A stretch of DNA of 63,184 nucleotides, the filler included, from Conidiobolus incongruus B7586 (lineage: Eukaryota): the NCBI GenBank assembly GCA_000697335.1. It is 12 parts of 12 records of this genome, joined end to end, with 100 filler letters (N's around TTAATTAATTAA, not from the genome) between each part and the next. Parts side by side here need not be neighbours in the genome. Positions count along the whole stretch, not along the records: positions 1 to 6,462 come from JNEM01007142.1; 11 more parts are not named here. The stretch is one strand, 5' to 3'. The notes under the pieces are model-generated. The model worked only from the letters and a program-made list of their open reading frames with translations, had not been told where the DNA came from and did not search any database. Positions 1 to 63,184 of the stretch are shown here, piece after piece (within the stretch, counting starts at the first letter, position 1; each line of letters begins with the position of its first letter). Position numbers and translations under genes: made by a program.

Positions 1-771
1 ATTAAAATATTAAAACTAAAATTTTAATTAAAATAAGGTACATATTTATAGGATTTTGGTAATAATAAGAAAATCAAAACTTAGTATATTTATCTTTAAA
101 TTTCTAATTTTTTAAGTTTATACAATATAAAAAAAATTAATTTCTTATACTAAAAAGGATTAATTTTATTTTAAGCTTCTTAATTATATTTTTGAAATTA
201 ATTTTAATCTTTTATTAAATATAAAGTTTTAATAATAACTTTTAATTAATTTTAATAATATTTAATTAGGTAATGATTAAAAAATTAAAAAAGTTATTTT
301 ATAACTATTATTTTGCTATTTTTAAGCTATTTAGTAATAAAAATAATAATATAATTAAAAATATAATAATATTAGAAAATAATATTAAATTTATTTAACC
401 TATATTTTTTAATAATTTTTTTATTTATAATTTAAAATGCTTCAATATATCTTAATATTAATTCTGATATTAACTTTATAAAAATATCTTATATTTAAAG
501 ATAATATATATCCTTAAATAATAATTAACCTCTTATTATATTCTTTAGTGAAAATAATATAATAATTATAAAGTAATTGAATATTTTTTTAAAATATTTA
601 GCTTTTTTAATAAATTTATTAAAATATATTCTTATTATATTATACTAAATAACTTTACTTTAGCTAATTTAAAATTAATATTAATAATTATATTTAAATT
701 CTTATTTAACTCTATAATAGCATTTTTTTAATTAAGGTTGTTTTTTTTAAAATATAAGTATTATTTATTTA
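1..771 (-). mobile_element. Degenerate Tc1-family transposon fragment, interrupted at 772 by an LTR retrotransposon
   Basis: Colinear with the Tc1 copy at about 22970-23720 but much more AT-shifted; no open frame. Confidence 0.8.
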
Positions 772-1170
772 TGTAAGTGTAGTGGTAGTTAAACTAATAT
801 AGTGTAGAGGAAAACTTAATATAAAAGTAGTGTGGTGTAGAATGTGGTAATATAATGTAGCTGTAGTGTGCAAGTGTAAACAAAGTTTAATTAAGCTTCA
901 AACTAGGATGAGTCACTGATATATTAAGATTTATATTAGGTAGTGCCAATATCCTACAATATCAACAGAATATAGTCTCAATCTTAGAAATAGTGTAAAA
1001 GTAAAAATAGTAAGAATTAAGAGGAAAAAAGAAGAACTTAGTTTATTAGATAATTTAATACTATTTATACAATTAATTTAACTATATAAGTATAAATTAA
1101 TTATATAATTTATAGTTAATTGGATTATATGAAAATATATATAACAATTTAAAGAATTAGTCTTTTAACA
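772..1170 (-). repeat. 3' LTR of family A chromovirus (399 bp, TGT...ACA)
   Basis: Terminal TGT/ACA; matches 6089-6462, 54722-55119 and the reverse complement of 57312-57713. Confidence 0.95.
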
Positions 1171-4100
1171 CTCCCCTAGTAGGTTTCTTAAAAGAGACAC
1201 ACTCCCTAATTTTTTGTAAATAGGTATAATAGGCTAAGGTATTCTTAATATTTTCTAGAGGTTCTTATGTAGCTTCTTTAATAGGATAACCCATCCATTT
1301 TACATAAAAATAAAGCTTATTCCTAATAGATTTAGACTTAATTATATAATTAACATAGTATTCTTCTTCTCTATCTTGATTAATAATTGGATCTAGTTTT
1401 AAGGTTTTTAATTAATTAGGAAAAGTGTTAAAATCTTTAAAGTATAGTTTAATTTTAGATATGTGAAAGGTAGGGTTGATCCTCAAAGTTAAAGGTAATT
1501 CTAAGGTAATATTTTCAAAATTTGAATTAATAGATTAAATTTTATAGGGACTATAATATAATGGTAAGTATTTGGGATTTAAGCTAGATTTAAGTAAGGT
1601 AGGTTTAAGGGCAGATTGTTCTAAGTATACAAACATACCAGTTTCATATTTAAGAGGGTTTCTAGATAACTTTAAGTATTGTTGTTCTATGATCCTTTGA
1701 TTTTCTTCTAAGTTAAATTTAACAAGAGAATTGATATGTTTGATATTAGATTAAAATTCAACAATGTCCAAAGGTAAGTTGATTTGAAGTTTTAAAGTAA
1801 TTATTAAGTTAGGATATTTGCTATAATTAATGAAATAAAGGCTAAAACCTGTTGATCTATTGATAAAGGTGTTGAATAAATATTAGAGTTGGTAGATATA
1901 GGCATCTTAATTTAACTAATTAGTGTTAATATAGGCTTTAATCATTTGCTTCAAGGTTTTAATAGTTTTTTTAGCAAGTTTATTAGTTTAGTGATGATTG
2001 GTAGTAGACATAGCTAGGTTAATCTTAAAGGAAGAGGATAGTGACTTCTAGAATTAAGAGTTGAATTGTACATCTTTATCAGATATAATAGTTTGTAGAA
2101 TTCTATGGTAGGTAAAGATATTAGAGAATAACAATTGTGCAACATCTTTAGCTGTAGAAGTTTTGAAATAAAGAATAAAATAAGCATATTTAGAAAATAA
2201 ATCAATTGCAATTAGTAAGTTATTATAACTATTTGTTGATTTAAAAATTTCTATGAAATCAAGTTGGATTTGTTGTTAAATTTCATTAGGGATTTGTAAA
2301 GGAATAAGTTTACTATATTTTAGTTAAGTATTATATTTAGTTCTTTAGCATATATCACAGGTATTAGTGTATTTCTAAACTAATTTAACTAGGGAAAGTT
2401 AGTAGTACTTTGTTTTAATTCTCTCAGTGGTCTTTAACTAGTTTTAATGTCCTCTAACAAGTAAGTTATAGCATTCATTAAATATTATTTGTTAGATCTT
2501 AGGAATGTTAGGAATATATAGACAATCATTATAATATAGTAAGTTATTGATAATTTTAAATCTTTTAACATATTTTAGTTAGTTTTCTAATAGTTTAGAG
2601 AGTTCTTCTTTAACTAAAATAAAGAAATTATTATTTAGTAGTATTTTTTAAAGTAGTTTAATAAATTCTTTATTTCCTTCATTAATAATCATTAAGTTAA
2701 TATTTGCTGGATTTTTACAATTAGAACAAAAGGGTAGGTATACAAGATTTTTTAACAAAGTATCTACAACATAGTTCTATTAACCTAAAAGATATTAAAT
2801 AAAGAAAAGGTAAGCTTGGATAGTTTTAATCTATTTAACTTATTTTCTTGATAAATGCTTCTAAGTATTTAAGTAGATAAGTGATTTATAATTTATAAAT
2901 GCTAAGAAAAAGTTGCAAGATAAAAAGTGTGAGTGATTTTTGATTATTTCTACTAAAGCAAAGAGTTCTTGTTTATAAACTAGGTATTTCAATTCAGCTG
3001 GTTTTATTTTTCTTAACTAGAATGTTATTAGTTTTAAGGTAACATTTATAAGGTTAAATTTAACCTGTTCTCCTTTATTTATTATTTTATCCTATAGTTA
3101 TAAAGTAAAATATAAATTAAATTCAAACTAGGTTAACTATCCACCAATTATAAAAGAATTAGAGTCAGTAAAAATAATAGTAGGTAGTTTTAGATTAAAG
3201 ATAGATAAAGTAAAAGCATTAGTAATATAGAATATTAAAACATTTATGTAAAAAGTGTGTAGTGGGGTTTATTCAAAAAAAGAGTTTTTCTTCAAGAGAT
3301 TAGTAAGAAAAACAATAAGTTCAGTAAAAGAATCAATGAAATCTTTAAAGTAATTCAATAATCTAAGTATAAACATAAGTTAATCTTTATTTATAAGTAT
3401 AGTAAAGGCTTTAACACCATTGAGTTTAGTTAGATCAATACTAATTCTTTAAGATGAAACAATATAACCATAGAAAAAGATAGAAGAGGCACCAAAGATA
3501 CATTTTAATAGTTTCAAAGGTAATTTATATTCTTGAATAATTTATAAGACTTAATTAACATGTTGAATATATTCTTCTTTAGTTTTTGAATGGATCAGGA
3601 TATTATCAAGGTAAGTGATAACAAAGTTATTAAAAACAGGGTTGAAAAGGGAATTGATAAATCAAGTGAAAGTTACAAGAGCATTACACAATCTAAAGTT
3701 TATAATAGTAAATTCATAGTGGCTTAAAAGAGTGTTGAAAGTAGTTAAAGGGATAAAGTTTTCTTCAACTCTAATGTTGTAATATCTATTCTTAACATCT
3801 AGTTTAGTAAATATAGTTGATTTAAGTAGTTTATCCCTAACATCATGTAGGTTTAGTAATAAAGTTTTATCCTTGATAGTTTTAAAGTTTAAAACACAGT
3901 TATTAATATATAATCTCTAACCACCATTAGCCTTTTGTATAAAGAAGATTAAAGATTTTTATAGTGAGGAAAAAGGTTTAATGTACCTATTTTCAAGTAA
4001 TTTTTAGATTTCTTCTTTCAAGGTTTGGTATTATTCAGGAGATAAATGGTAAATAAACTTTAAGTATAGTTGTGTACCAAGGATTAGTTTAATTTTGTGT

Positions 4101-6088
4101 TTAATATTATATTTAGGTGGTAATCTATTCACAAGTTTAAAAACATTAGCAAATTAACTTACTGTATTGTATAAAAAGTGGTCATTAGATATAACTTCAT
4201 TAAAATCAACAAATGAAGTGCTGATAAATGAATAATAAACAGATATATATCCCCATAAATTATTTAAGTTTTTGATTAGTTTTTTACATTGATTTTTACT
4301 TATAATAATAGAATTATTTGCTATAATTGTAGAGTTAGTGTTAGGTAAAGTATTTAATAGTTTTATAGTAGGGTAATGTAGATTTTTTAAGATTAATTCT
4401 ACTAATTTCTTTTGGAATGTGAAAAAGATAAATTTGTAGCTTTCTGGGGTAATATCTATAGATATAAAACTGTGATATTCAAACTAATTTTAACTTAGTA
4501 TAAAATTATAACTAATGTTGTTAACTAGGAATTTAATATATTGGGAGTAGTTAAGGGGTAATGATAAGTATTTAGATATAGTGTTAGATGCTTGTTCTAT
4601 TAAGTTGTTAGCATATTTAATTATTAAGTTGCTTTTTTAGGTAGGTAAAGATAGCTTTACAACAATAAAAGAGGAGATAATATAACTAGAATAACTAGAG
4701 TTAATTAAAACACTAACAGGTGTATCTATAAAAAAACTAGTTAACATAAACAATAGGGTGATAGTTAAAGGTAAAGAATCACAGGGTAGATTAGTTACTA
4801 GAATATTTTTAGTTTCTAGTGGTTTAATCAGTTAGATTTCTCTAGTATACATAGTTTAATTTGTGGAATTATTGGTTTATTAGAACTTTTGTGGATTAGA
4901 TTAGAATCTGCTGACTAATTGTAAAAGGGGTGATTCTAAGGTTATATTAATATTATTCAAGTTTAATTTATGGTTGGCAAATTAAGATTATTGAGAATTA
5001 GATTAGTGTTGTTTCTTAAAGGGATATTTGTTAGCTCTATAGTTAACTTGAGTCTTTTAGCAGTAATAACAACCTTTGTTTGTTCTCAAGTAAGCTTTAG
5101 CTTCTTCACTAAAGGTTTTCTCATAAAGTTTTAAAGCAGAAACATCTATCATTTGAAACTTAGGTGGGTTAAAGTAAAGTTTAAAAGATTAATTTTTAGG
5201 GTAGGAAGATTTAGTTATAGAGTAAAGGATATCATCAATTATAATTGTTGTATCACAAATGTTAAAAAAAGACATATTATCAAAGTGTTCCCTACTAACT
5301 AACTAAAGCTTTACTTGGGGGTTAAAGCATTATAATAGTTTGTGGATTTGTTTTTCTTTAGTGATATTTAGTATATTTAAGCATATCTCATTAAATTTCT
5401 CAATTAATTATCTTGCAAAAGTTCTTTATTTAAGCTAGGAAAGCTTTTCTCTTGTTAATTAAACTTAATCTTTTAAGTAATACCTCTCTTTAAAAGCTTT
5501 TTCTAATTGTTTAAAAGTTTATATCTTTGTAGTAGGTTATCCTCTTGAAGATTCTTTAGGATTAAGCTTGTAATGAGTTAACTACTAAATATAAACAAAT
5601 TTTTCCAAAAAAGAAGTGGTTAATTTAAGGATATTCTCTAGATCTTTATTAAGAATTAAATCAAGGTAATTCTTTATGTTTTTAAGGTAGTTTTCAAGCT
5701 TGTAAAGGTTTTTTAAGTTATCATAAGTAGTTAATTTGTCTTTAAAAACACTAAGGAGGTGGTTTAATACATTAACTATAGTGAAGTAGCTAGTTTGTTA
5801 GATTTAAGCTCTTTGAGACATGTTTTTTTCAATCAAAAGTTGTTTAATATAAGCTTCTTGGAGGGTAGTAAGCTTTTAGGGACTAAAGTCTTAGATTCAC
5901 TCAATAATTAAGCTGCTATCATTATTAAAATAATATGAGGGTATCTCTTTTTTTAGTGGTATTATAGTGTATAGTGTTAAATTTAAATGAAATAAATTAT
6001 AAATAAGATTTAAAATAGTAATAGATAGGTTAGATACAAGTAGTTATTAATTTCTAGTAGGTTTTTAGCAGTTTTGTCACTGTTACCA

Positions 6089-6462
6089 TATAAATATAGT
6101 GGTAGTTAAACTAATATAGTGTAGAGGAAGATTTAATATAAAAGTAGTGTGGCACAAAACATAGTAATATAATGTGGCTGTAGTGTGCAAGTGTAAACAA
6201 AGTTTAATTAAGCTTCAAACTAGGATGAGTTATTGATATATTAAGATTTATATTAGGTAGTGCTAATATCCTATAATATCAACAAAATATAGTCTCAATT
6301 TTAGAAATAGTGTAAAAGTAAAAATAGTAAGAATTGAGAGGAAAAAAGAAGAACCTAGTTTATTAGATAATTTAATACTATTTATACAATTAATTTAACT
6401 ATATAAGTATAAATTAATCATATAATTTATAGTTAATTGGATTATATGAAAGTGTATATAAG
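6089..6462 (-). repeat. 5' LTR of family A chromovirus (truncated by gap)
   Basis: Ungapped match to 772-1145; adjacent PBS-like sequence at about 6076-6088 (minus strand). Confidence 0.92.
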
Positions 6463-13494: not shown

Positions 13495-14739
13495 TTACAA
13501 AGCTTTTAAAAAAGTGATATTGGAGTTGGATGTTGAGCTATTGCTATGACGATGAAGTTGATCATCAATAGTGATAGCAGCTCCCATTGATAAATATTGT
13601 TCAGATTGTTCACTGAGTCGATTTTTCGTACAGGTCTGATAGTTTAAATAGCTCCTCTGAGATTTGTTCAATAATAAATAATAAATGCCTTTAGATAAGA
13701 TGGTATCAATCCACTGGATTCGAGTTGGTAACCTTGAAGCATTTCCATCCATCAAATCTATTGATAATTGGGATCTACTGGATGGTAGTTCGCGATGGAA
13801 TAAGGTGGGATAATAGGATTTTATCAGGGTCATTTTGGTGGATTTCCAAGCATTACTCACCACAGGGTCGAAGCAGAATACAATTCCAGTAATTATTCCT
13901 CTGCACGATAATGTAACCATTCCTAAAAACCACAGCACTTTACTAACATCCTTATTAATGTAAAAATAAAGTGTTGAAATAAAGGACATAGAAAGCGTCA
14001 AACAGGGGACCATGGGATATAGCAATACTCTAATAACAGTTCGATGGATGATTTTTTCATTCTTTTTTCTTTCTGCCAACTGGGCAGAGCTTTCTCTAAC
14101 ACTCACTCTGAATTTATTTAATTCATGTCGATTGCTGATTAATTTGCATAAAATTGTAACTATTACACCTGTGCAGTATATTACTCCAAATATTATCCAT
14201 CCATACATGACAGAAATTTGCCAAATGATCGATTGTAAACTAGACTCTTGGAAGAACCAGCATGAATTTTCAACTGTGTCATAACCAAAAGCACCAGCTA
14301 GCATTGGAATGCTAGCTATTAAAGCGGCTGCAAGAACTGAAGCGATATAATATAACACTTCTATCCTTCTTGGCAAGTCTCGATGGAATAATAATAACAA
14401 TTGAAGGTTAAGTGCAATCGACATATTAAGGAATAAAGAGCATAAAATGGAGAATATAAATAAAAATCCAGAAATATAACATTGATAGTCTGCATCTAGA
14501 CTTGATATTGTAATATGAGAAATTGCAAAAATTACATCCATTAAAGCAATTCCAATGACTAAATGAAAAGTTGCCCTTCTCTGGGCTTTTTTACCAAACA
14601 TGTAAATAAGGAAAATAACGAATAATACACACAAACCAACACCAATAGAAATAGAATTCATAACATATAGCGTTGATTTGTACACACTATCCCATATCTG
14701 ATTGACTATTTCTTGATCCATTGCTTGCGCATCTGACAT
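13495..14739 (-). CDS. Seven-transmembrane GPCR (cAMP-receptor-like/Git3-type), single exon
   Basis: Seven hydrophobic segments; TM3 Cys (YQCYISG); extracellular FGYD..SCWF; TM6 RVLLYPMV; TM7 CRGIITGIVFCFDP. Likely start MSDAQ at 14739 (the ORF is open to 14838). Confidence 0.85.
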   Translation of the reverse strand: MSDAQAMDQEIVNQIWDSVYKSTLYVMNSISIGVGLCVLFVIFLIYMFGKKAQRRATFHLVIGIALMDVIFAISHITISSLDADYQCYISGFLFIFSILCSLFLNMSIALNLQLLLLFHRDLPRRIEVLYYIASVLAAALIASIPMLAGAFGYDTVENSCWFFQESSLQSIIWQISVMYGWIIFGVIYCTGVIVTILCKLISNRHELNKFRVSVRESSAQLAERKKNEKIIHRTVIRVLLYPMVPCLTLSMSFISTLYFYINKDVSKVLWFLGMVTLSCRGIITGIVFCFDPVVSNAWKSTKMTLIKSYYPTLFHRELPSSRSQLSIDLMDGNASRLPTRIQWIDTILSKGIYYLLLNKSQRSYLNYQTCTKNRLSEQSEQYLSMGAAITIDDQLHRHSNSSTSNSNITFLKAL

Positions 14740-20183: not shown

Positions 20184-20499
20184 NNNNNNNNNNNNNNNNN
20201 NNNNNNNNNNNNNNNNNNNNNNNNNNNTTAATTAATTAANNNNNNNNNNNNNNNNNNNNNNNNNNNNNNNNNNNNNNNNNNNNTGGAAAATTTAAAAATA
20301 ATTCATTATAATAAAATATTTTTATTAATACTAAAGATATTGATATAAAACCTATATTATTAATTTAAATAAATTGGAATAAAAATTTATTAATTAATTA
20401 TTTTATTAAGAATAATTATATTTTATTAATGAATTATCCAAATATTATAGTTAAATTATAATAATAGATAAAAAATACAAAAAATAAATTTGGTAAATA

Positions 20500-21802
20500 T
20501 TACTTTGTAATTTAAATAATAGGAATTTTTTGCAATTGAAAAAAAATAAACATTTTAATATATAAAAAGTAAAAATAAATATATAATATAAAATCAATAA
20601 TTTCTTTAATCTCTAATAACTTTTTGCTATACTTTTAGCAAAGATCTAATACCTAAAAAACAGTTCTTTTTATTAAAAACTGAAATTTGATGTTTTACAA
20701 ACTAATTAAATTTTCTTGTACAAATTTTTTTTCTTGTAAGCTGGTTTTTTAATTGCCTAAAACAATTATAATCACATAGGTTATAATCTAAGGAATATAC
20801 TAGATATGGTAGTTTTTTCTAGTTATTTTTAATTAAAAAGTTTTTTATAACTTTAAATTTATGTATTTTGTAATTATTATGCAAAATAATAGGTTTTCTC
20901 AAATTATATTGAGAATACCAATTAGAAATAGTTTTATTTAAAAAAGAAATATATAGTTTATTATTAATTGATTTTCCTTTAAAAATTAAATAAGAATAGT
21001 ATATACTATAATAATCTATTACAATAATTAACATTTGCTTATCAACAAAATGTTTATTTAAAAAAATTTGTAGAGGGGGTTGATTTAGCTTAATTTAACA
21101 TCTTGATTTAAGTTTTAGTAAAGGATTACACAAAAAAATCTAAAATTCATCAAATGTAATAATTTACTGTAAAAGCCTTGGTTTTTAGCTATACCTTAGT
21201 AAGTTTTGTTTAATATTAGCTACTTTAGCTTTTTTTTAAACTTTAGTTAAATTATAAAGTACCCATTTTACAATTTTATTGATTAATTTTAATTTAAACT
21301 TTAATATATATAAAATACTTATGTAACTAATATTAAAGTATCTTGATAATTTTTTATTTGAAATAAAAAGGTATTTTTTAATATGTTTTTTTATCTTATT
21401 AACAATTAGAAAAGTAACAATTAAAATTAGTTTTCTAGATTTTAATAGGTTTTAGATAGTTTCTCTCTTAACCTTAAAGTAATTTACCTAGCAATAAATT
21501 ATTGATTTAGATAATACTTCATTACTAAAAGCTGCTTGTAAATTTTAAATAATTTTAAAGGGTTTATGGTTAAGTTTTATTAATACTAAAATAAAAAACT
21601 TTTGATGGTTATTATTTGGTTTAAAAATAATTAAATTAAATAACTAATTTTAAAAAATTATTTTTTTTAATCAAAAAAGTTATTAAATATATATATATAT
21701 ATAATTTAAAACTATTTATTTTCCTATTTGTTTTATATATTTATTTTATTTAAAATTAATAATATGTTTGAAAAATTAGAAATTAAAAAATTTCCTATTT
21801 TA
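20500..21802 (-). mobile_element. Mariner (DD34D) transposon, degenerate
   Basis: Reverse complement of 51612-52923; includes track ORF 20819-21034 (..KPIILHNNYKIHK..). Confidence 0.92.
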
Positions 21803-22695
21803 TTAATANNNNNNNNNNNNNNNNNNNNNNNNNNNNNNNNNNNNNNNNNNNNTTAATTAATTAANNNNNNNNNNNNNNNNNNNNNNNNNNNNNNNNNNNN
21901 NNNNNNNNATAATAAAAATTATAAATATTAACAGTTTTTTTAAAACTTTTTTATATTAATTATAAGAGTTTTTTATTAAAAATTAATATTATTCTTAAAG
22001 TTATAAATAATATTCTTTTTATAATTATTATACCTTAATTTATTATCTTAATATTTTATTTATCTCTTTTATCCTTTTTTGATAACTTTAAGAAAAAAAA
22101 ATTAAATAATATTCCATTTTCTTTCATTGTTTTTTATACTTCTAGAGCTTTTATTTAAAGAAAACAATAATAAGTAAGAGTTATTATTACCTTATTTTTT
22201 ATTATTTAAAAAATTTAGTTCTTTATAGTAGAATTAATTATATAATGAAAAAATTATAGGAGTTATATTAAAAGTTTTAAAAAACTAAATTATTTTATGT
22301 TTTAAAATATTAATTATTATAAACAAAGGGTAATTTTTACCATATTATTTATTTATTAAAACTTATTCAATAATTTTAAATTTATCAATAAAAGTTCTTA
22401 TATAATTAAATATTTTATCATATTTCTTTCTTAAATTCATATAATTTTTTTTTAAAATAGCAATAAAGCTATATATTGTAAAAAACATTTAACTTATTAA
22501 AACACTAAGATTTATAATTTTCCTCCTATCTTAATTTATTAAATATAATTTCTATTAAGTATAATTCAAGGTAGTCATTATTATTATTAATAATATTAAT
22601 AATAGATGACATAAAAGAAAAAAAAGATAAAGCTTAAAAGTATAGTTTTTACTAATAGATATATGTGGTATTTAATCTAAAATAAAAATCATTTA

Positions 22696-25557
22696 TTACT
22701 ATAGAATTAAAGAAATGGGAAATTTTTTAATTTCTGATTTTTCAAACATATTATTAGTTTTAAATAAAAAAATATATATAAAATAAATAAAAAAATAAAT
22801 AGTTTTAAATTACACTAACCTGCAAAAGTAAGTTATAAAATCAAAAACACCTATATTTTTACTAATAACTTGATTAATATTTAATGAAATAAACTTAAAT
22901 TAAATAATTAAAATCTATTATATTTATTAGTTATATATATCATTAAATGATGATATTTAGCTATTAATTGGTTAAAATATAAACCCTTAAATTTTACCTA
23001 AGGTGAGTTATAAATTTGCAGGTTTTTGGTGATAAAAAAAAATTAAAACCTAGTGTATCTACCTTTAGCTTTTCTAACTTCTTTAAGTTTGTAGGGTATA
23101 GAATCAACTAACTTCTTATACANNNNNNNNNNNNNNNNNNNNNNNNNNNNNNNNNNNNNNNNNNNNTTAATTAATTAANNNNNNNNNNNNNNNNNNNNNN
23201 NNNNNNNNNNNNNNNNNNNNNNAGGTTAGGAGATTAAAGAAGCTACTTTATAACTGTTATCTTGTTATTTTTAAGCTATTTGGTAATAGAAGCTGTAGTA
23301 TAACAAGAGGTATTATCTTACTAGAAAATAACATTAGATTTGTTTAACCTATACCATTCAATGGTTTTTTTCAATTCATTGTTCAGAATACTTTAGTACA
23401 TCTCAACATTAATTCCCCCATTAACTTTACAAAGATACCCTACACCTAAAGACAACATACATCCCCAAACAATAATTGACCCACCACTATACTTTTAGGT
23501 AAAATTAACATGATGGTTATAAAGTAATTCTGCATCTTTTCTGAAGTATCTAGCTTTTCTATCAGATCCACTAAAGTATATTTTTGTTTCATCAGACTAA
23601 ATAACCTTACTCTAATTAATTTCAGTTTAATATCAGTAGCAACATTTAAACTCTTGCCTAGCTTTATAATAGGATTTTTTTAGTTGGGGGTGTTTTTTCT
23701 TGAAGTGTGAATGGTATCTATGCTAATATAAAGTACATATAATAGTATCAGTGCTAACTAATATTCTTGTATAGTCTTATAATTCCTGCTATATTTCTAC
23801 AGCAGTACCACACTTGCTTGTATTAACTAACCTATAGATATACTTCTCATCATGTTTATCTATAATCTTAACACACTTAAGTTTAAGTTTAAATGTTTCT
23901 TTATTGCTATTCTTAACAGCTTTAACTATAGTAAACTAGCTAACACTAATAATTCTAGCAATATCATAAGTTGATTTACCTTTTTTATAAAGTTGATTAA
24001 TACACAAATAGATTTTTTTAAAGAGGGATTTAAGTATAATGATACTAATAAAAAAAATTTAGTATATCTGTAAAATATTATATAAAATAATAGTAAAGAG
24101 AGAAAAAAGATATGGTTATATATTGTTAAATATATCCCTTTATCTCAAAAACCCACAAATTTATAACTTACCTTGGTTAAATATTAAAGGTTAATATTTT
24201 TGTTAATAGTTTACTAAATATATCTAAATATATTTATCTATTATTAAATAATATACCTTAATTATATATTATAATTTTAAGTAATCTAATATATACAATT
24301 GTTTTAGTTATTAATTAATATATATATATTTTTGATTTTATAACTCACTTTTGCAGGTTAGTGTATATATATATATAATAATTTTTTTGATTAAAAAAAT
24401 ATTTTTTTTAAAATTAGTTGTTTATTTTAATTATGCTTAAACTAAATAATAACCATCAAAAGTTTTTTATTTTAGTATTATTAAAATTTAACCATAAACC
24501 CTTTAAAATCATTTAAAATTTACAAGTAGTTTTTAATAATAAAGTATTATTTAAATTAATAATTTATTACTAGGTAAATTACTTTAAAGTTAAGAGAAAA
24601 AATACCTAAAACTTGTTAAAATTTAAAAGATTAATTTTAACTATTATTTTTTTAATTGTTAATAAAGTAAAAAAACATATTAAAAAACACCTTTTTATTT
24701 TAATTAAAGAATTTTTAAAATATTTTAATATTAGTTACATAAGTATTTTATATATATTAAAGTTTAAATTAAAATTAATTAATAAAAATATAAAATAAAT
24801 AATTTATAATTTAACTAAAGCTAAAAAAAATTAAAGTAGTTATTGTTAAACAAAACTTACTAAGGTATAACTAGAAACTAAAGTTTTTATAGTAAATTAT
24901 TATAATTAATAAATCTTAAATTCTTTTGTATAATCCTTTACTAAAACATAAATTAAAGTGTTAAATTAAGTTAAATCAACCCCTTCTATAAATTCCTTTA
25001 AATAAATACTTTATTAATAAGTAAATATTAATTGTTATAATAAATTATAATAACATATACTATTTTTATTTAATTTTTAAAGGAAAATTAATTAATAATA
25101 AACTTTATATTTTTTTTAAATAAAACTATTTTTAATTGGTATTCTCAATATAATTTGAGAAAACCTATTATTTTGTATAATAATTGTAAAATACATAAAT
25201 CTAAAGTTGTGAAAAACTTTCTAATTAAAAATAACTAGAAAAAACTACTACATCTAGTATATTCTTTAGATTATAACCTATGTGATTATAATTGTTTTAG
25301 CCAATTAAAAAACTAGCTTACAGGAAAGAAAATTTCTACAGGAAAATTTAATTGGTTTGTGAAACATCAAATTTCAGTCTTTAATAAAAAGAACTATTTT
25401 TTAAGTGTTAGCTCTTTGATAAAAGTATAGCAAAAAGTTATTAGAAATAAAGGAAATTATTAATTTTATAATATATATTTATTTTTATTTTTTATATATT
25501 AAAATGTTTATTTTTTTTCAATCACAAAAAATTCCCATTATTTAAATTACAAAGTAA
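22696..25557 (+). mobile_element. Mariner transposon split by a Tc1 insertion at 22813-24363
   Basis: Both termini present and TA-flanked; the sequence resumes colinearly after the Tc1. Confidence 0.92.
22813..24363 (-). mobile_element. Tc1-family transposon with IR/DR-like ends, inactivated
   Basis: TIR CACTAACCTGCAAAAGT(A/G)AGTTATAAAATCAAAAA at both ends with TA duplication. Minus-strand KVI*SDETKI, KYSGGSIIVWGCM and F**DNTSCY..*LL*SPN. Contains an assembly gap. Confidence 0.95.
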
Positions 25558-26025
25558 TAATTAATATGGAATAAAGTTATACTGCTATAAAATGCAATGA
25601 TAAACCCTTAACCTTATTTTTATAGTTTATGAGAGAAAATTAGTGGATTTTATGAATCAAAAAATTTGGTAGGCTATTATTTTATAACCAATTTTTTCTA
25701 AAACCAAAATCAGTCAAACAAAAAATCAGAAAAGATTGAGCAGATTTGACTAGACTCAATATTTTTATAAATTTTTACCAATTTGATTGATCAATCCCAT
25801 AATAATGAATATCATTGCAAAAATAAATACTTAGTGTAATATGAATAAATAATATTGAAATTTTAAACAGTCTTAATTCAAATTATTAGTTATATTAAAA
25901 AAAGTATTATTCAAAATATTCAGAGTTTTAAATACATCAAAAATAAATAAATATATATTAATAAGAAACTATTATCATAAATATATCAACAATAAAATCG
26001 AACTGTTAAAAATAATCAACAAAAT

Positions 26026-32661: not shown

Positions 32662-32763
32662 NNNNNNNNNNNNNNNNNNNNNNNNNNNNNNNNNNNNNNN
32701 NNNNNTTAATTAATTAANNNNNNNNNNNNNNNNNNNNNNNNNNNNNNNNNNNNNNNNNNNNTA

Positions 32764-33583
32764 CACTAACTTGTAAAAATAAGTTATAAAATCAAAAACA
32801 CTTATATTTTTACTAATAACTTGATTAATATTTAATGAAATAAATTTAAATTAAATAATTAAAATCTATTATATTTATTAATTATATATATTATTAAATA
32901 ATGATATTTAGTTATTATTTGACTAAAATATAAACTTTTAAATTTTACCTAGGGTAAGTTATAAATTTGTAGGTTTTTGGTGATAAAAAAAATTAAAACC
33001 TAATATATCTACCTTTAGCTTTTCTAACTTCTTTAAGTTTGTAGGGTATAAAATCAATTAACTTTTTATATTAAGAAAGGTTAATTTTATTCTATGTTTC
33101 TTAAATATATTCTTAAAGTTAATTTAAATTTTTAACTAGGGGGAAAGCTTTAATAACTTTTTTTAATTAATCCTAAAAGTGTTTAATTAGATTAAAGTTA
33201 AAAAATTAAAGAGGTTATTTTATAATTATTATCTTGTTATTTTTAAGCTATTTGGTAATAAAAGTTATAGTATAGTAAGAGGTATTATCTTACTATAAAA
33301 TAATATCAGATTTATTTAACTTATATTATTTAATAGTTTTTTTCAATTTATTATTTAGAATACTTTAGTATATCTCAGTATTAATTCCTTTATTAACTTT
33401 ATAAAGATACCTTATACTTAAAGAAAACATACATCCCCAAATAATAATTAACCTACTATTATACTTTTGGGTAAAATTAACATGATGGTTATAAAGTAAT
33501 TTTACATTTTTTCTGAAGCATTTAACTTTTTTATCAAATCCACTAAAGTATATTTTTGTTTCATTAAACTAAATAACCTTACT
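32764..33583 (-). mobile_element. Tc1 copy (3' half), interrupted by an LTR element
   Basis: TA + CACTAACTTGTAAAAATAAGTTATAAAATC; colinear with 22813-23612. Confidence 0.92.
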
Positions 33584-34020
33584 TATAACAGGGCAATGTA
33601 TACAAGTTGTTTCAATGTGAACAGTGTGGGAAAAAAGTCCTTGTTTATTTGGCAATGGTTCCTATTTTTATATGTAAAAGTTGGTGAGGGTTCAGAGGTA
33701 AAATTAGACAAGATAAGATCAAGTAGATAAAAGAGATAAGATAAGGTAAGCAGATATGATTGACAGTGTCACGATGATGACAAAGTGATCTGATCTATGA
33801 CACTCCCCTCAGATTGAGGTGTCCTTATTAGGAGACGCTCTAATCTTTGAATGCTTCTCAGCGTAGGCATGATAGGCATTGGTCTTTTTAACGCTATTAT
33901 AGCGTTCCCAAGTAGCTTCATTTTTAGGGTATCCTTTCCATTGGACGAGGTATAGATCTTGGTCATAATAGTGTCTATGGCTGAGGATTTTATCGACGAT
34001 GAAAGGATGATCTTGTTGAT
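33584..34020 (-). mobile_element. 3' end of a second chromovirus (family B): chromodomain, PPT and about 220-bp LTR
   Basis: Minus frame FIVDKILSHRHYYDQDLYLVQWKGYPKNEATWERY..* (stop 33809-33811); PPT gaggggag followed by TGTCATAG at 33802; LTR about 33584-33802. Confidence 0.88.
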
Positions 34021-35498: not shown

Positions 35499-36032
35499 TT
35501 ATTCCTTTTCAGGATATTCATCGCCGGCATAATGGCTGTTGTAGCTATCATCGTAATCATCATTGTCATAATCGTCTCCATAGGACCATCCACCATATCC
35601 TTTAGAGTACCCATAGTCTCCTTTTCCTCCATAATGCTTTCCTCTTCCATAATCTTTTCCGTATCCATCATATCCATCATATCCACCATATCCACGACGG
35701 TAGTAGGATGGACGGTAATCCTTGTTATATCCATATCTACCTTTGCCACCATAGCTATCATAATCATCATAGTCATCATAATCACCATAGCCTTTCCATC
35801 CACGACGATAGTATGATGGACGGTAATCTTTTCTATAGCCATCATAGTCATAGTCATCATATCTGTCATAACCTCCATAGCCTCCATAGCCTCCATAACT
35901 CTTCCAACCACGACGATAGTAAGAAGGACGATAATCCTTGGAATATCCATAATCATCATAACCACCATAGTTCTTATAACCACCAGCCAAAGTGGGTAAG
36001 ATTAAAGTCAAAGTAGCCAAGAATTTGTTCAT
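35499..36032 (-). CDS. Secreted Gly/Tyr/Asp-rich repeat protein, copy 1 (177 aa)
   Basis: Signal-peptide-like MNKFLATLTLILPTLA; three KDYRPSYYRRG repeats; upstream TATAAATA. Confidence 0.88.
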   Translation of the reverse strand: MNKFLATLTLILPTLAGGYKNYGGYDDYGYSKDYRPSYYRRGWKSYGGYGGYGGYDRYDDYDYDGYRKDYRPSYYRRGWKGYGDYDDYDDYDSYGGKGRYGYNKDYRPSYYRRGYGGYDGYDGYGKDYGRGKHYGGKGDYGYSKGYGGWSYGDDYDNDDYDDSYNSHYAGDEYPEKE

Positions 36033-36510
36033 TTTAAAACTGAATTGAATGATTAATTACTAAACAGATGAAATCGATATTGTATAATGCTACTATCAAT
36101 TGCATATTTATATCTGTTTGAATTGCAATTAGTCAGTTTCGTGCCAAAATTTCCATGAAAATCATAATCAATTATTATTTGCACTTGAAAATTTCGATTA
36201 ATGATTTTAAATTATTTTATCCTTTATGCTAAACAAATCAATTTGTTTGAATTTCGTTGATTTTCGAATTTATTAATCATCGATTTATTACTTGTTTATC
36301 AATTTCTGAAATTAGTGTAATTGCGAGTAGGTTTACTGACAATGACAATAAAAACAAGAAAAGTCTTTAGTAATATATTGAAAATTTTATATTTAAAATC
36401 CTGTTATAGTGATATATATATTATGAAATTATTATATAATATCTACATGCTTTGAGACATTTTATTCTAGAGTTCGGTTCTTTATTCTTATTATAATCAT
36501 TAAAAATGAA

Positions 36511-38613: not shown

Positions 38614-39457
38614 TATAAATATAAATTAAATTCAATTGATTATAATCTCTTATATAAATTCAATTAAAATAAAAATATACTAAAGATGGAAATAAACTAT
38701 AAAGAGCAAAATGGCTTTTATAATTTTCAGGATTTAATATTACTATATATAAATCTTATTTTCAATATTCAGGTAATAAGTTAAAAATTTTATTATTATT
38801 TATTTGAATCACTGCAAGAGATTTGATAGTGAAATTTGAATCTTAGATTTTTTATGAAAAGTTAATTCAATCAGAATTGAATTTAATTTTATTTTTTATG
38901 TCATCAAAATTAAAAATATCGTTAGATTAATACATTTATTAAGAGTTTTGATTGATTTATATTGAAAATATTTTGATCAAAAGCATAATCCAATCACAGC
39001 CCAATAGTAAAATGATGGACATTATTATTCGTTCAATCTGATATCCTCTCAATTACATACTTGTCATTAATAGAAAAGAGCATAAAGAGCGCATGTTAAT
39101 AAATCGGGTATTTAAACAATCTATTTCAAATAAATCAAATATAGAGAAAGGAATAAATTTGAAATGCTAACAAATTACAGATTAATTGCCTCTTTGTAGA
39201 AAAGATTTGCCAAATTTAAATTTTTGTAATCAAAAGAATGAAAATCAGTTGAAATTTTGAGTTGAATTGGGATGATTGAAAATAGAGTAGAATATGAAAA
39301 AAATATTGTAAATAATAATTGATTATGATTTTCATGGAAATTTTGGCACGAAACTGACTAATTGCAATTCAAACAGATATAAATATGCAATTGATAGTAG
39401 CATTATACAATATCGATTTCATCTGTTTAGTAATTAATCATTCAATTCAGTTTTAAA

Positions 39458-39982
39458 ATGAACAAATTCTTGGCTACTTTGACTTTAATCTTACCCACTT
39501 TGGCTGGTGGTTATAAGAACTATGGTGGTTATGATGATTATGGATATTCCAAGGATTATCGTCCTTCTTACTATCGTCGTGGTTGGAAGAGTTATGGAGG
39601 CTATGGAGGCTATGGAGGTTATGACAGATATGATGACTATGACTATGATGGCTATAGAAAAGATTACCGTCCATCATACTATCGTCGTGGATGGAAAGGC
39701 TATGGTGATTATGATGACTATGATGATTATGATAGCTATGGTGGCAAAGGTAGATATGGATATAACAAGGATTACCGTCCATCCTACTACCGTCGTGGAT
39801 ATGGTGGATATGATGGATATGATGGATACGGAAAAGATTATGGAAGAGGAAAGCATTATGGAGGAAAAGGAGACTATGGGTACTCTAAAGGATATGGTGG
39901 ATGGTCCTATGGAGACGATTATGACAATGATGATTACGATGATAGCTACAACAGCCATTATGCCGGTGATGAACAATATTAA
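39458..39982 (+). CDS. Secreted Gly/Tyr/Asp-rich repeat protein, copy 2 (174 aa)
   Basis: Identical to copy 1 except for the last residues (DEQY vs DEYPEKE). Confidence 0.88.
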   Translation: MNKFLATLTLILPTLAGGYKNYGGYDDYGYSKDYRPSYYRRGWKSYGGYGGYGGYDRYDDYDYDGYRKDYRPSYYRRGWKGYGDYDDYDDYDSYGGKGRYGYNKDYRPSYYRRGYGGYDGYDGYGKDYGRGKHYGGKGDYGYSKGYGGWSYGDDYDNDDYDDSYNSHYAGDEQY

Positions 39983-44518: not shown

Positions 44519-46612
44519 TTATAAAAATTCTTGGAGTAAGGGTTGCAAACTGTACCAAACATCTCTGACTACACAATGGCGCTTAGAACCTTCTCGAGTG
44601 GCATCAATGAGCATGTCGAGTTGTCGCTGATGGATAGCTCTTGTGCTGCCTAGTGTATCCTGACAGTTTTTGATCATGTACACGTGGACTCGGATGAGGT
44701 TGATCACACACCACCATTTGTAAGTGTCAAGGCATTGGATGTATGAAGCCATCATGGTTTCCATTTGGAAGGATCCTAAACTTGCTGCTATTTGACACTT
44801 TTGGAGAGGGTTCAACTGATGCCAGGTATTCATCGAGAGTGCTGTTTGGGATTCAAATTGATGCAAGGGCAAGTGGTTGGTATCGATGAGTGGCATATTG
44901 ATCTCAATCAAAAGAGACCAAAAATTAACATGCAAATTGACAGAGAATATCGAACTGGGTACTAGTTGTTCATTGTGGGAGAATATATGGAAGATATCAT
45001 CAGAATAACTGGTCTTAAAGATGTTGGGTAAGCGTCTGTACCATTCAATGACAAATCTTTCAAGGCTTAAGCAGCGCTTTTGGTAAGTTTCCAACTTGTT
45101 CTCGTTATTATCATATACTGAACGCTGCGAGATGAAGGGAAATTGATTACATGGGGCTCGTTTGATGAAGGTGGTGAACTCCAGTCGAAGAGTAGTCATT
45201 TGGGAGATGAGGTAGATAAAAGAAGCTTTTGCTGTGAAGTAAGTGGCAAGGAGTTCTGAATTAAACTGACTGAGATTGAGCTGTGGTGGGAATTCGGCTG
45301 AAGTTTTAGGGAGTGACATGGATGTATCATGGATATTAAAAAAGTTGGGCCAGCCTACACTATGAGCTTTAGTGATATCTCTACAGGCAGCTGTCCACCA
45401 CATTCGCTTACGCATTTCTCGAATTCTAGGTGGGAGATCGGGGCGATCGATATGTAGTCCAAGCTGAAGTGCATAGCGGTAAGCAATGCCCTGGTAGTAC
45501 CAACCTCTTTCCATGAGACGATCATAGGATAAAATATCTAGACAGGGACAAATTAATAGAAGTGCTTGCACTAGAAAAAGGGAAGGCTTGTTATAAATAC
45601 TGCACATGTATTTTTTAATCAATCGCCGGAATGGTAGATATAAAACCTGTGCTTCCCCTGGAGGATAGCATCCTGAACCAAGGGTGCAAACAACCCCAAA
45701 TAGGAGCAAAAAGTCGGGCTGTCTGCTGTTACTGAGCCAATGGTTGCAGAATGCCACAGGATCTATTACTGGGTGGTGTGGATGCAAGTATTGGAAAAAC
45801 CAGGTAATCAATTGATTTATTTTCCAGAAGGGAATTTCCGATATATCTTGGAAGATGTCAGAAGTAATTTTACCAAGCTTCATCTTCCTGACTGGAGGAT
45901 TAAGCACAAATGGAGATGATGAAGATAAATCAAGCGTTATAACGAAGTGCACATCGCTTTTTATGTTAAATAGTGTTGAAAAACGCTTGCCTGATAATTG
46001 AATAGGTGAAGTAATACATACACGTGACTTTGAACTTCTTGAAGCTTGAACTAAAGAATTGTTAGCATTAGATGCTGGTAAATTTGTATTTATATCAAAT
46101 GGTGTCAAAATAACAAAATTGCGTTCGTTGTTATTAAAAATAGGAGGACTGTTACTTTGAGAGTATGGCTGTAAAGGTGGTAAAACTGAAGAGAGTTTGT
46201 GCGGTGGTGAAATAGTACCAGTAGACTCTGAAGATGAGCTGCTAGAATCCGAACCTATAGAATACTTGTCCTGATATCTTGAGGGTTTTCTTTTTCTTAA
46301 AGTTGTATCAAGACATTCTATATTAGATTTAACGCAATTTTGGCATCGGCCAGTATCGGTCGGTGTACAGCGTTTTTTATGGTGTCTACACCAATCACAG
46401 GCTTTGCTATAGGGTTTTCTTTTCTTGACAGGTTTTTTAGCTTCGGTTTTATTTTTAGGTAATTCATTATTTTCATTTTGAATAGATGAACTTGGAGAAC
46501 ACTTCATCTGAGAAGTTGCAGAATTAGAAGTAAACTTAGTAATATCAGTCATCAAAGTTGCCTCAGAATATTTATTAAATAATTCTTGAGGAAAAGAGTA
46601 TTGTTGAATCAT
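44519..46612 (-). CDS. Zn2Cys6 fungal transcription factor with a fungal-specific middle homology region
   Basis: ACDWCRHHKKRC..CQNCVKSNIEC; FFQYLHPHHPVID; ALQLGLH..EMRKRMWW. Confidence 0.95.
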   Translation of the reverse strand: MIQQYSFPQELFNKYSEATLMTDITKFTSNSATSQMKCSPSSSIQNENNELPKNKTEAKKPVKKRKPYSKACDWCRHHKKRCTPTDTGRCQNCVKSNIECLDTTLRKRKPSRYQDKYSIGSDSSSSSSESTGTISPPHKLSSVLPPLQPYSQSNSPPIFNNNERNFVILTPFDINTNLPASNANNSLVQASRSSKSRVCITSPIQLSGKRFSTLFNIKSDVHFVITLDLSSSSPFVLNPPVRKMKLGKITSDIFQDISEIPFWKINQLITWFFQYLHPHHPVIDPVAFCNHWLSNSRQPDFLLLFGVVCTLGSGCYPPGEAQVLYLPFRRLIKKYMCSIYNKPSLFLVQALLLICPCLDILSYDRLMERGWYYQGIAYRYALQLGLHIDRPDLPPRIREMRKRMWWTAACRDITKAHSVGWPNFFNIHDTSMSLPKTSAEFPPQLNLSQFNSELLATYFTAKASFIYLISQMTTLRLEFTTFIKRAPCNQFPFISQRSVYDNNENKLETYQKRCLSLERFVIEWYRRLPNIFKTSYSDDIFHIFSHNEQLVPSSIFSVNLHVNFWSLLIEINMPLIDTNHLPLHQFESQTALSMNTWHQLNPLQKCQIAASLGSFQMETMMASYIQCLDTYKWWCVINLIRVHVYMIKNCQDTLGSTRAIHQRQLDMLIDATREGSKRHCVVRDVWYSLQPLLQEFL

Positions 46613-51611: not shown

Positions 51612-52923
51612 TTATTATAGAATTGAAGAAATGGGAAATTTTTTAATTTCTGATTTTTCAAATGTATTATTAGTTTTAAATAAAAAAATATATACAAAAC
51701 TAATAGAAAAATAAATAGTTTTAAATTATATATATATATATATATAATAACTTTTTTGATTAAAAAATAATTTTTTAAAATTAATTATTTAATTTATTCA
51801 TACTTAAACTAAATAGTAACCATCAAAAGTTTTTTATTTTAGTATTAGTAAAACTTAACCATAAACCCTCTAAAATCATTTAAAATTTACAAGTAGCTTT
51901 TGGTAATGAAGTATTATCTCAATCAACAATTTATTGCTATGTAAATTACTTTAAAGTTAAAAAAAACTACCTAAAACCTATCAAAATCTAAAAGACTAAT
52001 TTTAACTCTTACTCTTCTAGTTGTTAATAAAGTAAAAAAATATATTGAAAAACACCTTTTTATTTTAGCTAAAGAATTATCAAAATATATTAATACTAGA
52101 TATATAAGTATTTGATATATATTAAAGTTTAAATTAAAATTAATTAATAAAAATATAAAATAGATATCTTATAATTTAACTAAAGCTTAAAAAAAGTTAG
52201 AGTAGCTATTGTTAAACAAAACTTACTAAGATATAGCTAGAAACCAAGACTTTTACAATGAATTATTATAATTGATAAATCTTGGATTTTTTTATATAAT
52301 CCTTTATCAAAATATAAATTAAGATATTGGATTAAGTTAAATCAACCCTTTTTATAAATTCCTTTAAATAAACACTTTATTGATAAGTGAATATTAATTG
52401 TTATAATGGATTATAATAGCATATGCTATTCTTATTTAGTTTTTAAAGGAAAATCAATTAATAGTAAACTTAATATTTCTTTTAAATAAAACTCTTTTTA
52501 ATTAGTATTCTTAATATAATTTGAGAAAACCTATTATTTTGCATGGTAATTACAAAATACATAAATCTAAAGTTATAAAAAATATTTTAATTAAAAATAA
52601 CTGGAAAAAACTACCATATTTAGTAAATTCCTTAGATTATAACCTATGTGACTATAATTGTTTTAGGCAATTAAAAAACTAGCTTGTAGGAAAGAAAATT
52701 TTTGCAAAAAAATTTAATTAGTTTGTGAAACATCAAATTTCATTCTTTAATAAAAAGAACTGTTTTTTAAGTATTAGATCTTTGTTAAAAGTATAGCAAA
52801 AAGTTATTAGAAATAAAAGAAATTATTAATTTTATATTATATATTTACTTTTACTTTTTATATATTAAAATATTTACTTTTTTTCAATCACAAAAAATTC
52901 CCATTGTTTAAATTACAAATTAA
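51612..52923 (+). mobile_element. Full-length (1312 bp) mariner DD34D element, inactivated
   Basis: TA-flanked imperfect TIRs; remnants IIIIDKSWIFLYNP, IILHGNYKIH and WKKLPYLVNSLDYNLCDY. Confidence 0.95.
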
Positions 52924-55119: not shown

Positions 55120-55417
55120 TCATTATCTTTTTCTTTTAAAATGAATCTAGTTATGTTTATTATTAATTATCATTAAACTAATAAACTTATTAAAATAATT
55201 ATTAAAATTTTAAAATAAATAATTAATACTTATATTAATACTTATCAATTAAATTAAAATAATTATATTTAATAATTTGAATATTTATTCAATATTTTTA
55301 TTGATAAATCAATAGGTTTTTATTTTTATTTCATCAATTATAACAAATATCTTAATTTAATAGTTATTTTAAAATTTTAAATTAACTTTTCTTTAGATAT
55401 TATTGAACTTTAATTTA

Positions 55418-63182: not shown

Positions 63183-63184
63183 TA

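What the first reader, a model, noticed from the sequence alone, without database searches (positions are those of the whole stretch)
772..6462. RIP-like transition hypermutation of repeats in an apparently non-Dikarya fungus
Seen: by manual alignment the two LTRs of one element differ by about 24 transitions, 1 transversion and no indels over about 374 bp. One site reads ggTGtagaaTGtgg in one LTR and ggCAcaaaaCAtag in the other, which implies ancestral CpGs resolved on opposite strands. Coding motifs are broken by C>T/G>A, often at CpA/TpG (YLDD>YLDN, TGG>TAG/TAA; CAG CAA>TAG TAA in Tc1), and I saw essentially no CpG left. All major repeat families in the window show this, while most genes keep their CpGs. 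Known: RIP (RID/DIM-2) is characterised in Pezizomycotina, with RIP-like patterns in some Basidiomycota. Inference: a repeat-directed mutator with broad CpA+CpG(+CpT) context in an early-diverging fungus, more than passive mCpG decay.
Basis: partly seen in the sequence, partly recalled or inferred. Interest (0 to 1): 0.88.

Follow-up and report, generated by a model that had tools for sequence, protein, structure and literature searches.

The report
All-context C-to-T transposon erosion, Conidiobolus
In a fungus whose closest named relative is Conidiobolus coronatus, far from the groups where a repeat-mutating defence is established, dead transposons have lost cytosines to C-to-T changes in every sequence context while genes and spacers keep their CG sites, likely because a DNA methyltransferase marks the repeats and the marked cytosines decay one at a time rather than in the bursts of classical RIP.

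Summary
Observation confirmed: the two LTRs differ by 24 transitions, 1 transversion and no indel in 374 bp. The 1,586-codon Ty3 frame has 71 stops and no frameshift. In 20.6 kb of decayed transposons 1 CpG remains of 159 expected; single-copy spacers keep o/e 0.73. The host is a close relative of Conidiobolus coronatus (73-77% protein identity; Zoopagomycota), not Dikarya. Fitted C>T rates are CpG >=8 : CpA 1.7 : CpT 1 : CpC 0.4, and CpT alone runs 20 to several hundred times faster than A<->T, so this is more than mCpG decay. But RIP's testable hallmarks fail: no CpA preference and no same-strand tracts (0.55 vs 0.54 permuted). Not every repeat is hit: a second Ty3 family has about 70-100 near-identical CpG-intact copies, and a 667-bp inverted gene duplicate is intact. 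Best reading (0.6): all-context cytosine methylation of transposons with site-by-site C>T loss; enzyme and methylome untested. Weak RIP-like mutation over many sexual rounds stays open (0.25). The scan noted similar patterns before in Endogonales and Dimargaritales; none in Conidiobolus. New variant of a known kind.

The parts
772..1170 (-). 3' LTR of chromoviral Ty3/gypsy element (TG...CA ends intact)
1171..1182 (-). polypurine tract next to the 3' LTR
   Evidence: sequence
1172..5929 (-). single gag-pol frame (gag, RT, RNase H, integrase, SH3, chromodomain); 71 stops, no frameshift, no CpG
6071..6088 (-). primer-binding site starting TGG directly after the 5' LTR
   Evidence: sequence; label from general knowledge of LTR elements
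6089..6462 (-). 5' LTR, cut by the contig end; terminal CA reads TA
3..660 (-). heavily mutated Tc1 (family B) relic, GC 9.9%
20494..21806 (-). mutated mariner-like copy (family A), no CpG
22811..24363 (-). Tc1 family B copy 1, inserted at a TA run inside a family A copy; no CpG; spans an assembly gap
24364..25563 (+). family A host copy (left part 22649-22810)
32762..33590 (-). Tc1 family B copy 2; 73 transitions and 4 transversions from copy 1 in 700 bp
33597..34020 (-). CpG-intact LTR and chromodomain end of a second Ty3 family, inserted into mutated Tc1 copy 2 (internal control)
35517..36183 (-). arm 1 of a 667-bp inverted gene duplication, unmutated (control)
39307..39973 (+). arm 2 of the inverted gene duplication
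50952..57735 (+). older, more mutated copy of the finding's Ty3 family carrying three insertions; spans an assembly gap
51616..52934 (+). family A copy nested in the old Ty3
54722..55119 (-). solo LTR of the finding's family nested in the old Ty3, 5-bp target duplication TCATT
55434..56712 (-). diverged family A copy nested in the old Ty3 (dose not scored)
61900..63184 (+). heavily mutated family A copy
44519..46612 (-). Zn2Cys6 transcription factor gene used to place the organism; keeps its CpGs
13495..14736 (-). 7-transmembrane receptor-like gene used to place the organism; keeps its CpGs

Best explanation
Transposon copies in this close relative of Conidiobolus coronatus lose cytosines to thymine on both strands in all contexts (CpG fastest, then CpA, CpT, CpC) with no same-strand tracts, likely because a DNMT1/DIM-2-type methyltransferase methylates silenced transposons and the methylated cytosines deaminate and go unrepaired over many cell generations. 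Shown: the spectrum, its restriction to TEs, the context order, strand symmetry, absence of tracts, more damage in older hosts than in their nested guests, and escape of a young Ty3 burst and a gene duplicate. Inferred: methylation, the enzyme, and whether deamination is spontaneous or enzyme-driven (as proposed for Zymoseptoria Dim2).
For: Rates CpG >=8, CpA 1.69 (48 bootstraps 1.34-2.06), CpT 1, CpC 0.37 (0.10-0.57); reverse T>C only 0.7 of the A<->T rate. 10 TG/CA discordant pairs and 0 retained CpG in five copy pairs. Neighbouring mutations on the same strand 0.551 vs 0.537 +- 0.014 permuted, n=944; same-minus-opposite-strand correlation -0.005, against >=0.024 in every simulation of 16 or fewer one-strand rounds. 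Neurospora RIP clusters are 91.9% single-strand (PMC7296669). Guests are less mutated than hosts in 4 of 4 scored nests. DNA and LTR elements are hit alike. Repeat-confined 5mC is reported in early-diverging fungi, including CG and CHH in Phycomyces TEs and repeat-rich regions of Linderina (PMC11258239). The order mCG > mCA > mCT > mCC is the recalled off-target order of CpG methyltransferases (no call).
Against: No methylome and no methyltransferase gene was seen (no genome held). The excess is very large for passive decay: CpT C>T is about 20-90 times A<->T in three older pairs and 40 to several hundred times in the LTR and Tc1-B pairs; as I recall, that equals or exceeds fully methylated CpG in mammals. 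The ratio is highest in the least diverged pairs, which hints at front-loaded damage. The seven lightly mutated copies show a small, non-significant same-strand excess (0.567 vs 0.524, p=0.074; per-copy strand imbalance p=0.085). 5mC is described as scarce in Zoopagomycota (PMC11258239). [quoted passage not shown]
Confidence: 0.6

Rival explanations
1. A true RIP-like defence: a homology-sensing mutator acts in the sexual stage (zygospores), weakly per round and with broad CpG/CpA/CpT preference, and dozens of rounds have averaged out the strand signal.
For: 867 transition vs 16 transversion places across the family; 71 stops with no frameshift; damage per unit background change highest in young pairs. 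The second Ty3 family looks two-class: one contig at depth 1300.7 plus about 7 single-copy contigs, the three shown 11-18% diverged without gaps, as if a burst followed the last mutagenic episode. RIP index 24.2% in Zoophthora radicans (PMC11105155). Slight same-strand excess in lightly mutated copies.
Against: Needs more than about 16 one-strand rounds even though the LTRs carry only 15-18 scored changes each, i.e. about one change per round per LTR, which is not RIP's clustered behaviour. CpG, not CpA, is the top target. A linked 667-bp duplicate is unmutated (age unknown). RID/Masc1 homologues were found only in Dikarya (PMC5751038). The two-class pattern could be an old and a new burst, and contigs drop rare variants.
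Confidence: 0.25
2. Ordinary mCpG decay plus a general AT-biased mutation pressure acting on unselected TE sequence; the non-CpG changes are background.
For: CpG is the hottest context; single-copy non-coding DNA is itself only 19% GC; old family A pairs have about as many transversions as transitions.
Against: 748 of 770 scored transition differences are outside inferred CpG; C>A and C>G stay at 1.5 and 0.6 of the A<->T rate while CpT C>T is 20 to several hundred times it; CpA o/e is 0.73 in TEs vs 1.10 in spacers although CpG decay should raise it. The single-copy substitution spectrum itself could not be measured.
Confidence: 0.08
3. A cytidine deaminase (APOBEC/AID-like) edits single-stranded TE DNA during transposition or transcription.
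For: Almost pure C>T; the two LTRs share 7 changes against the solo LTR (2.9 expected, p=0.007), so some damage predates this insertion.
Against: The twin LTRs diverged after insertion; DNA transposons are hit as hard as retroelements; both strands are hit about equally; no tracts; the rate depends on the 3' neighbour, whereas these enzymes are recalled to read the 5' neighbour.
Confidence: 0.05

Closest known systems
Repeat-induced point mutation (RIP), Neurospora crassa and other Pezizomycotina (RID, DIM-2)
   Same: C:G>T:A only, confined to repeats, both strands, kills DNA and LTR transposons without indels; composite RIP index positive in these TEs (TpA/ApT 1.19, (CA+TG)/(AC+GT) 0.75).
   Different: CpG is the top target and CpT is 0.6 of CpA; no same-strand clusters (91.9% in Neurospora, PMC7296669); a linked duplicate and about 70-100 near-identical copies survive; host lies outside the known RID range (PMC5751038).
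Dim2-dependent mitotic C>T mutation of methylated repeats in Zymoseptoria tritici (PMC8016269)
   Same: C>T dominated, restricted to repeats, tied to a methyltransferase, needs no sexual cycle.
   Different: There >98% of C>T are at CA and CG is spared; here CpG is fully lost and CpT and CpC are also hit.
RIP-index signal in Entomophthorales (PMC11105155)
   Same: Same order of fungi; repeat DNA with RIP-like dinucleotide bias (Z. radicans 24.2%).
   Different: In the passages read, that work used window indices and domain counts, no copy alignments, context rates or strand tests, and gave no RIP figure for C. coronatus.
Repeat-confined 5mC in Phycomyces and Linderina (PMC11258239)
   Same: TE-restricted cytosine marking in CG and CHH in early-diverging fungi is the substrate my best explanation needs.
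   Different: The passages read report methylation, not mutation; no Conidiobolus methylome was found.
Passive CpG decay of methylated TEs (basidiomycetes, vertebrates; recalled)
   Same: Total CpG loss in repeats with TG/CA discordance between copies.
   Different: Here most visible changes are outside CpG.

Membership tests
RIP (RID-dependent) | C:G>T:A transitions almost exclusively | tested here: met
   24:1 in the LTR pair, 73:4 in the Tc1-B pair; 867:16 places family-wide; T>C at background
RIP (RID-dependent) | confined to repeated DNA | tested here: met
   CpG o/e 0.01 in TEs, 0.73 in spacers, 0.60 in CDS; by composition only
RIP (RID-dependent) | CpA/TpG as preferred context | tested here: not met
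   CpG >=8, CpA 1.7, CpT 1, CpC 0.37
RIP (RID-dependent) | clusters of mutations on one strand per round | tested here: not met
   0.551 vs 0.537 permuted; simulations of <=16 one-strand rounds excluded, 64 rounds not clearly
RIP (RID-dependent) | any long near-identical duplication is hit, whatever its origin | tested here: inconclusive
   667-bp inverted gene duplicate and a near-identical Ty3 family are intact, but may be younger than the last sexual cycle
RIP (RID-dependent) | acts in the premeiotic sexual stage | not testable with these tools
   needs progeny sequencing
RIP (RID-dependent) | RID/Masc1 methyltransferase present and required | not testable with these tools
   no genome held; survey found RID only in Dikarya (PMC5751038)
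Dim2-dependent mitotic mutator (Zymoseptoria) | C>T in methylated repeats at CA, with CG spared | tested here: not met
   0 CpG retained, 10 TG/CA discordant pairs vs PMC8016269 section 11
Dim2-dependent mitotic mutator (Zymoseptoria) | DIM-2-type enzyme and non-CpG 5mC on TEs | not testable with these tools
   no genome, no methylome
Passive mCpG decay | CpG depleted in repeats | tested here: met
Passive mCpG decay | non-CpG cytosines mutate near background | tested here: not met
   CpT C>T 20 to several hundred times A<->T
APOBEC-type editing of retroelement cDNA | one strand of the element, retroelements only | tested here: not met
   both strands and Tc1/mariner copies hit

The most novel reading that the evidence does not exclude
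Zoopagomycota carry a RID-independent, enzyme-driven repeat mutator: a cytosine methyltransferase (or partner) that actively turns C into T in all contexts of silenced transposons. Repeat-directed mutagenesis would then be older than Dikarya or have arisen again, and the k-mer screens that call it an ascomycete trait miss it in AT-rich genomes. The 70-100 unmutated Ty3 copies in this genome are a ready reporter for catching it in the act.
Probability: 0.33. Interest if true: 0.85.

Novelty: new variant of a known kind. Interest (0 to 1): 0.6.

Why it matters
A 2025 kingdom-wide screen concludes that RIP-like signatures are unique to ascomycetes and scores C. coronatus 'no_rip' (PMC12543289), while a 2024 paper hints at RIP in other Entomophthorales from indices alone (PMC11105155). 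Here copy alignments in a close relative of C. coronatus show strong repeat-restricted C>T loss with a context order matching neither Neurospora RIP nor the Zymoseptoria Dim2 mutator. It bears on whether repeat mutagenesis predates Dikarya and on how RIP could grow out of plain TE methylation. It is directly testable, because the genome holds many unmutated copies of one retrotransposon beside mutated ones.

Tried and rejected
No whole genome was held, so DNMT1/DIM-2/RID/DNMT5 and deaminase genes could not be searched. No RNA holder was listed. Runs X5, X6 and X7 gave no usable cover (0, 0 and 1 contigs laid), so no between-isolate single-copy spectrum. A CHG (CAG/CTG) preference was looked for and not seen: CAG 0.62 vs CAA 0.56 and CAT 0.58; CTG 0.43 vs CTA 0.45. 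The short-range same-strand clustering (1-5 bp, z 3.3) lies mostly at distance 1 and is largely reproduced by independent neighbour-dependent mutation (0.177 vs 0.104 +- 0.044), so it is rejected as evidence of processivity; one of six bins (101-200 bp, p=0.03) was also nominally positive. Bootstraps of the CpG rate stayed at the upper bound and are uninformative; only the profile lower bound is used. The 40 best-supported rows (of 943) are biased to slow sites and were not used for rates. The 52 Ty3 homologues were at most 35% identical and were not used. Left out of the rate fit: 4 of 8 family A copies, 1 of 3 family B copies and 2 of 4 LTRs (older or non-independent). No PF00145 rows in the three held supplements of PMC11105155 and no per-species Dim2/Rid table in the held supplements of PMC12543289 (the data are on Zenodo). 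The Bewick 2019 methylome survey was not held. Segments 36540-37270 and 61480-61810 matched no Pfam family convincingly in six frames.
Full report
OBSERVATION. The window is 12 contigs joined by N-linkers. Positions 772-6462 hold one chromoviral Ty3/gypsy element on the minus strand: 5' LTR (6089-6462, cut at a contig end), primer-binding site, one 1,586-codon frame with gag, RT, RNase H, integrase, SH3 and chromodomain matches, polypurine tract and 3' LTR (772-1170). The LTRs differ by 24 transitions, 1 transversion and no indel in 374 bp. The frame has 71 stops (52 TAA, 17 TAG, 2 TGA) and no frameshift; only 2 TGG, 1 CAG and no CGN codons remain. The element has no CpG. Across 20,587 bp of decayed TEs there is 1 CpG against 159.1 expected, and CpA o/e is 0.73. 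Single-copy non-coding DNA (27,685 bp, 19.3% GC) has CpG o/e 0.73 and CpA 1.10, and CDS 0.60 and 1.16 (compartments drawn by hand). Contigs of a run that holds this genome (36,041 laid) differ from the element at 867 transition places and 16 transversion places; the second run, same sample, gives 895 and 16 (>=10% share, >=80% identity, not all counted).

ORGANISM. The Zn2Cys6 factor at 44519-46612 is 77% identical to a cluster containing C. coronatus KXN66924.1. The next six hits by score are Entomophthora muscae (3), Neoconidiobolus thromboides, Massospora cicadina and Basidiobolus at 24-34%; the first ascomycete comes eighth (9 of 150 listed hits were looked up). The receptor-like gene at 13495-14736 is 73% identical to a cluster with C. 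coronatus KXN71679.1, and its top two Atlas clusters are mostly Zoopagomycota. The Ede1 exon has one unnamed 76% hit. So the host is a close relative of C. coronatus but not that genome; the placement rests on best hits, not on a tree.

SPECTRUM. Self-BLAST gave three decayed families: the Ty3, a mariner-like family A and a Tc1 family B. Young pairs are almost pure transitions (solo LTR vs twin LTRs 34:3 and 33:2; Tc1-B 22:2 and 51:2); old family A pairs approach 1:1. Scoring ten aligned pairs (one LTR used twice) by inferred 3' neighbour, differences were CpA 302 of 451 sites, CpT 357 of 687, CpC 89 of 255 and CpG 22 of 22. A neighbour-dependent composite-likelihood fit to five independent pairs gave C>T rates of CpA 1.69, CpT 1 and CpC 0.37 with CpG saturated, and background rates T>C 0.73, C>A 1.46, C>G 0.60 and A>C 0.31 relative to A<->T. 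The profile puts CpG at about 8 or more times CpT; 48 block bootstraps give CpA 1.34-2.06 and CpC 0.10-0.57. The CpT dose per unit of A<->T change is about 20-90 in the Ty3 and two family A pairs, 40 and 260 in the Tc1-B pair, and several hundred for the LTRs, where it rests on one transversion. Background in old pairs includes divergence between master lineages, so the fall of this ratio with age is only a hint. The five pairs hold 10 TG/CA discordances and no retained CpG. No CHG preference was seen. Both strands are hit about equally.

IS IT PROCESSIVE? In Neurospora 91.9% of RIP clusters are all C>T or all G>A (PMC7296669, passages). Here neighbouring mutations lie on the same strand in 0.551 of 944 cases against 0.537 +- 0.014 permuted (p=0.15). 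In the seven lightly mutated copies it is 0.567 vs 0.524 (p=0.074), and per-copy strand imbalance has p=0.085. The same-minus-opposite correlation at 6-100 bp is -0.005; simulations of one-strand rounds give 0.68-0.69 for 1 round, 0.18 for 4, 0.04 (minimum 0.024) for 16 and 0.01 for 64 (5 replicates each, tracts of 300 and 2,000 bp). The excess at distance 1 is largely reproduced by independent neighbour-dependent mutation. So the damage came one site at a time or in dozens of very light rounds.

TIMING AND ESCAPE. Five nested insertions are visible and four could be scored; in all four the guest is less damaged than its host. Tc1-B copy 1 (CpT dose 0.06) sits in a family A copy (0.44); a family A copy (0.25) and a solo LTR with a TCATT target duplication (15 of 92 sites) sit in the old Ty3 (0.94; 449 of 698 sites); and a CpG-intact Ty3 sits in Tc1-B copy 2 (0.42). 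Doses count only from each pair's common ancestor. Tc1-B copies 1 and 2 share 7 of copy 1's 8 stops in the aligned part, and the twin LTRs share 7 changes against the solo LTR (2.9 expected, p=0.007). This suggests that already-mutated copies were mobilised again, which would explain why the finding's frame (62% of Q/W-derived codons are stops) is more damaged than its LTR divergence implies. The CpG-intact family is informative: one 2,412-base contig at depth 1300.7 against 12.2-18.9 for single-copy contigs implies roughly 70-100 near-identical copies (my estimate; the tool warns that depth is no exact copy number). Beside them are about 7 single-copy contigs; those shown differ at 45 of 246, 16 of 141 and 18 of 151 bases without gaps. 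Of the 28 places listed, 22 are C>T or G>A from the window copy, 4 are T>C and 2 are transversions. In the coding part the shared changes fall at CpG, CpA and CpT (4 each, leaving out one place that no contig shares with the window) and none at CpC. Contigs drop rare variants, so the two-class pattern is suggestive only. A 667-bp inverted gene duplication 3.1 kb apart differs at 2 sites and keeps 16 CpG in one arm; I did not verify it with reads and its age is unknown.

MECHANISM. Best reading (0.6): TE-targeted cytosine methylation in all contexts with cumulative, unrepaired deamination, spontaneous or enzyme-assisted. It explains the CpG-first order, strand symmetry, lack of tracts, the age gradient and the spared gene duplicate. 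Its weak points are the size of the non-CpG excess, the reported scarcity of 5mC in Zoopagomycota (PMC11258239, passages) and the lack of any enzyme or methylome here. A weak many-round RIP-like process (0.25) explains the purity and the young-versus-old contrast but needs about one change per LTR per round. Background AT pressure plus mCpG decay (0.08) and deaminase editing (0.05) fit poorly.

WHAT IS KNOWN. PMC12543289 (abstract, passages, sections 8 and 9, supplement rows) finds RIP-like signatures only in ascomycetes and lists C. coronatus as no_rip. Its table 3 also gives C. coronatus 0 repeats of >=1 kb at 95-100% identity against 555 at 80-95%, which would fit similar erosion there (my inference). 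PMC11105155 (passages; supplements searched) reports RIP indices of 24.2% in Z. radicans and 2.4-5.7% in three other Entomophthorales with stated caveats; its figures were not visible. PMC5751038 (passages) found RID/Masc1 only in Dikarya, apart from a likely bacterial transfer in a chytrid. PMC8016269 (passages and section 11) shows a Dim2-dependent mitotic C>T mutator with >98% at CA. PMC7862722 (passages) has no Conidiobolus data. Nine library searches listed no alignment-level report for Conidiobolus; subscription papers, the Bewick 2019 survey and Zenodo data were not visible and may bear on this. This scan has noted like patterns in Endogonales and Dimargaritales (AI notes, unchecked) and none in Conidiobolus or this genome.

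VERDICT. Real and strong; it works like RIP in outcome but fails two testable defining features, so I do not file it as RIP. New variant of methylation-linked repeat mutagenesis in a lineage scored as lacking it. Interest 0.6.

Noticed in passing
window 33597-34020: End of a young chromoviral Ty3 family with roughly 70-100 near-identical copies by contig depth; probably recently active. The window copy has T where nearly all depth has C at 33663 (CpA), 33972 and 33982 (both CpG), which may be early decay or contig-end error.
   Followed up: partly
window 35499-36183 and 39307-39982: Inverted duplication of a gene for a short Gly/Tyr/Asp-rich repetitive protein with a signal-peptide-like start, no Pfam match; arms differ at 2 of 667 bases and the C-termini differ.
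   Followed up: partly
window 36540-37270: GC-richer, CpG-intact segment between the duplicated genes with stops in all six frames and no Pfam match; possibly a single-copy relic that escaped hypermutation.
   Followed up: partly
window 61480-61810: Similar short CpG-containing segment next to a mutated mariner copy, no convincing Pfam match.
   Followed up: partly
window 22811-23611, 32762-33590, 3-660: Three Tc1 copies share most stop codons, suggesting that dead copies were mobilised in trans after mutation.
   Followed up: partly
window 31092-31382: Intronless SUMO-like gene (Rad60-SLD match) whose frame ends in REKN rather than a di-glycine; possibly a divergent paralogue.
   Followed up: no
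window 42927-43850: Intronless 307-aa Gln/His/Gly-rich ORF at 41% GC with no convincing Pfam match.
   Followed up: no
window 6563-7825, 34121-34700, 37279-38806: Very old mariner relics at 13% GC whose CpA index has drifted back towards spacer values, so RIP-index scans would miss them.
   Followed up: partly
window 6463-6562 and 10 other gaps: Contigs are joined by 44 N + a 12-base six-frame-stop linker + 44 N; many breaks fall inside or beside TEs.
   Followed up: yes
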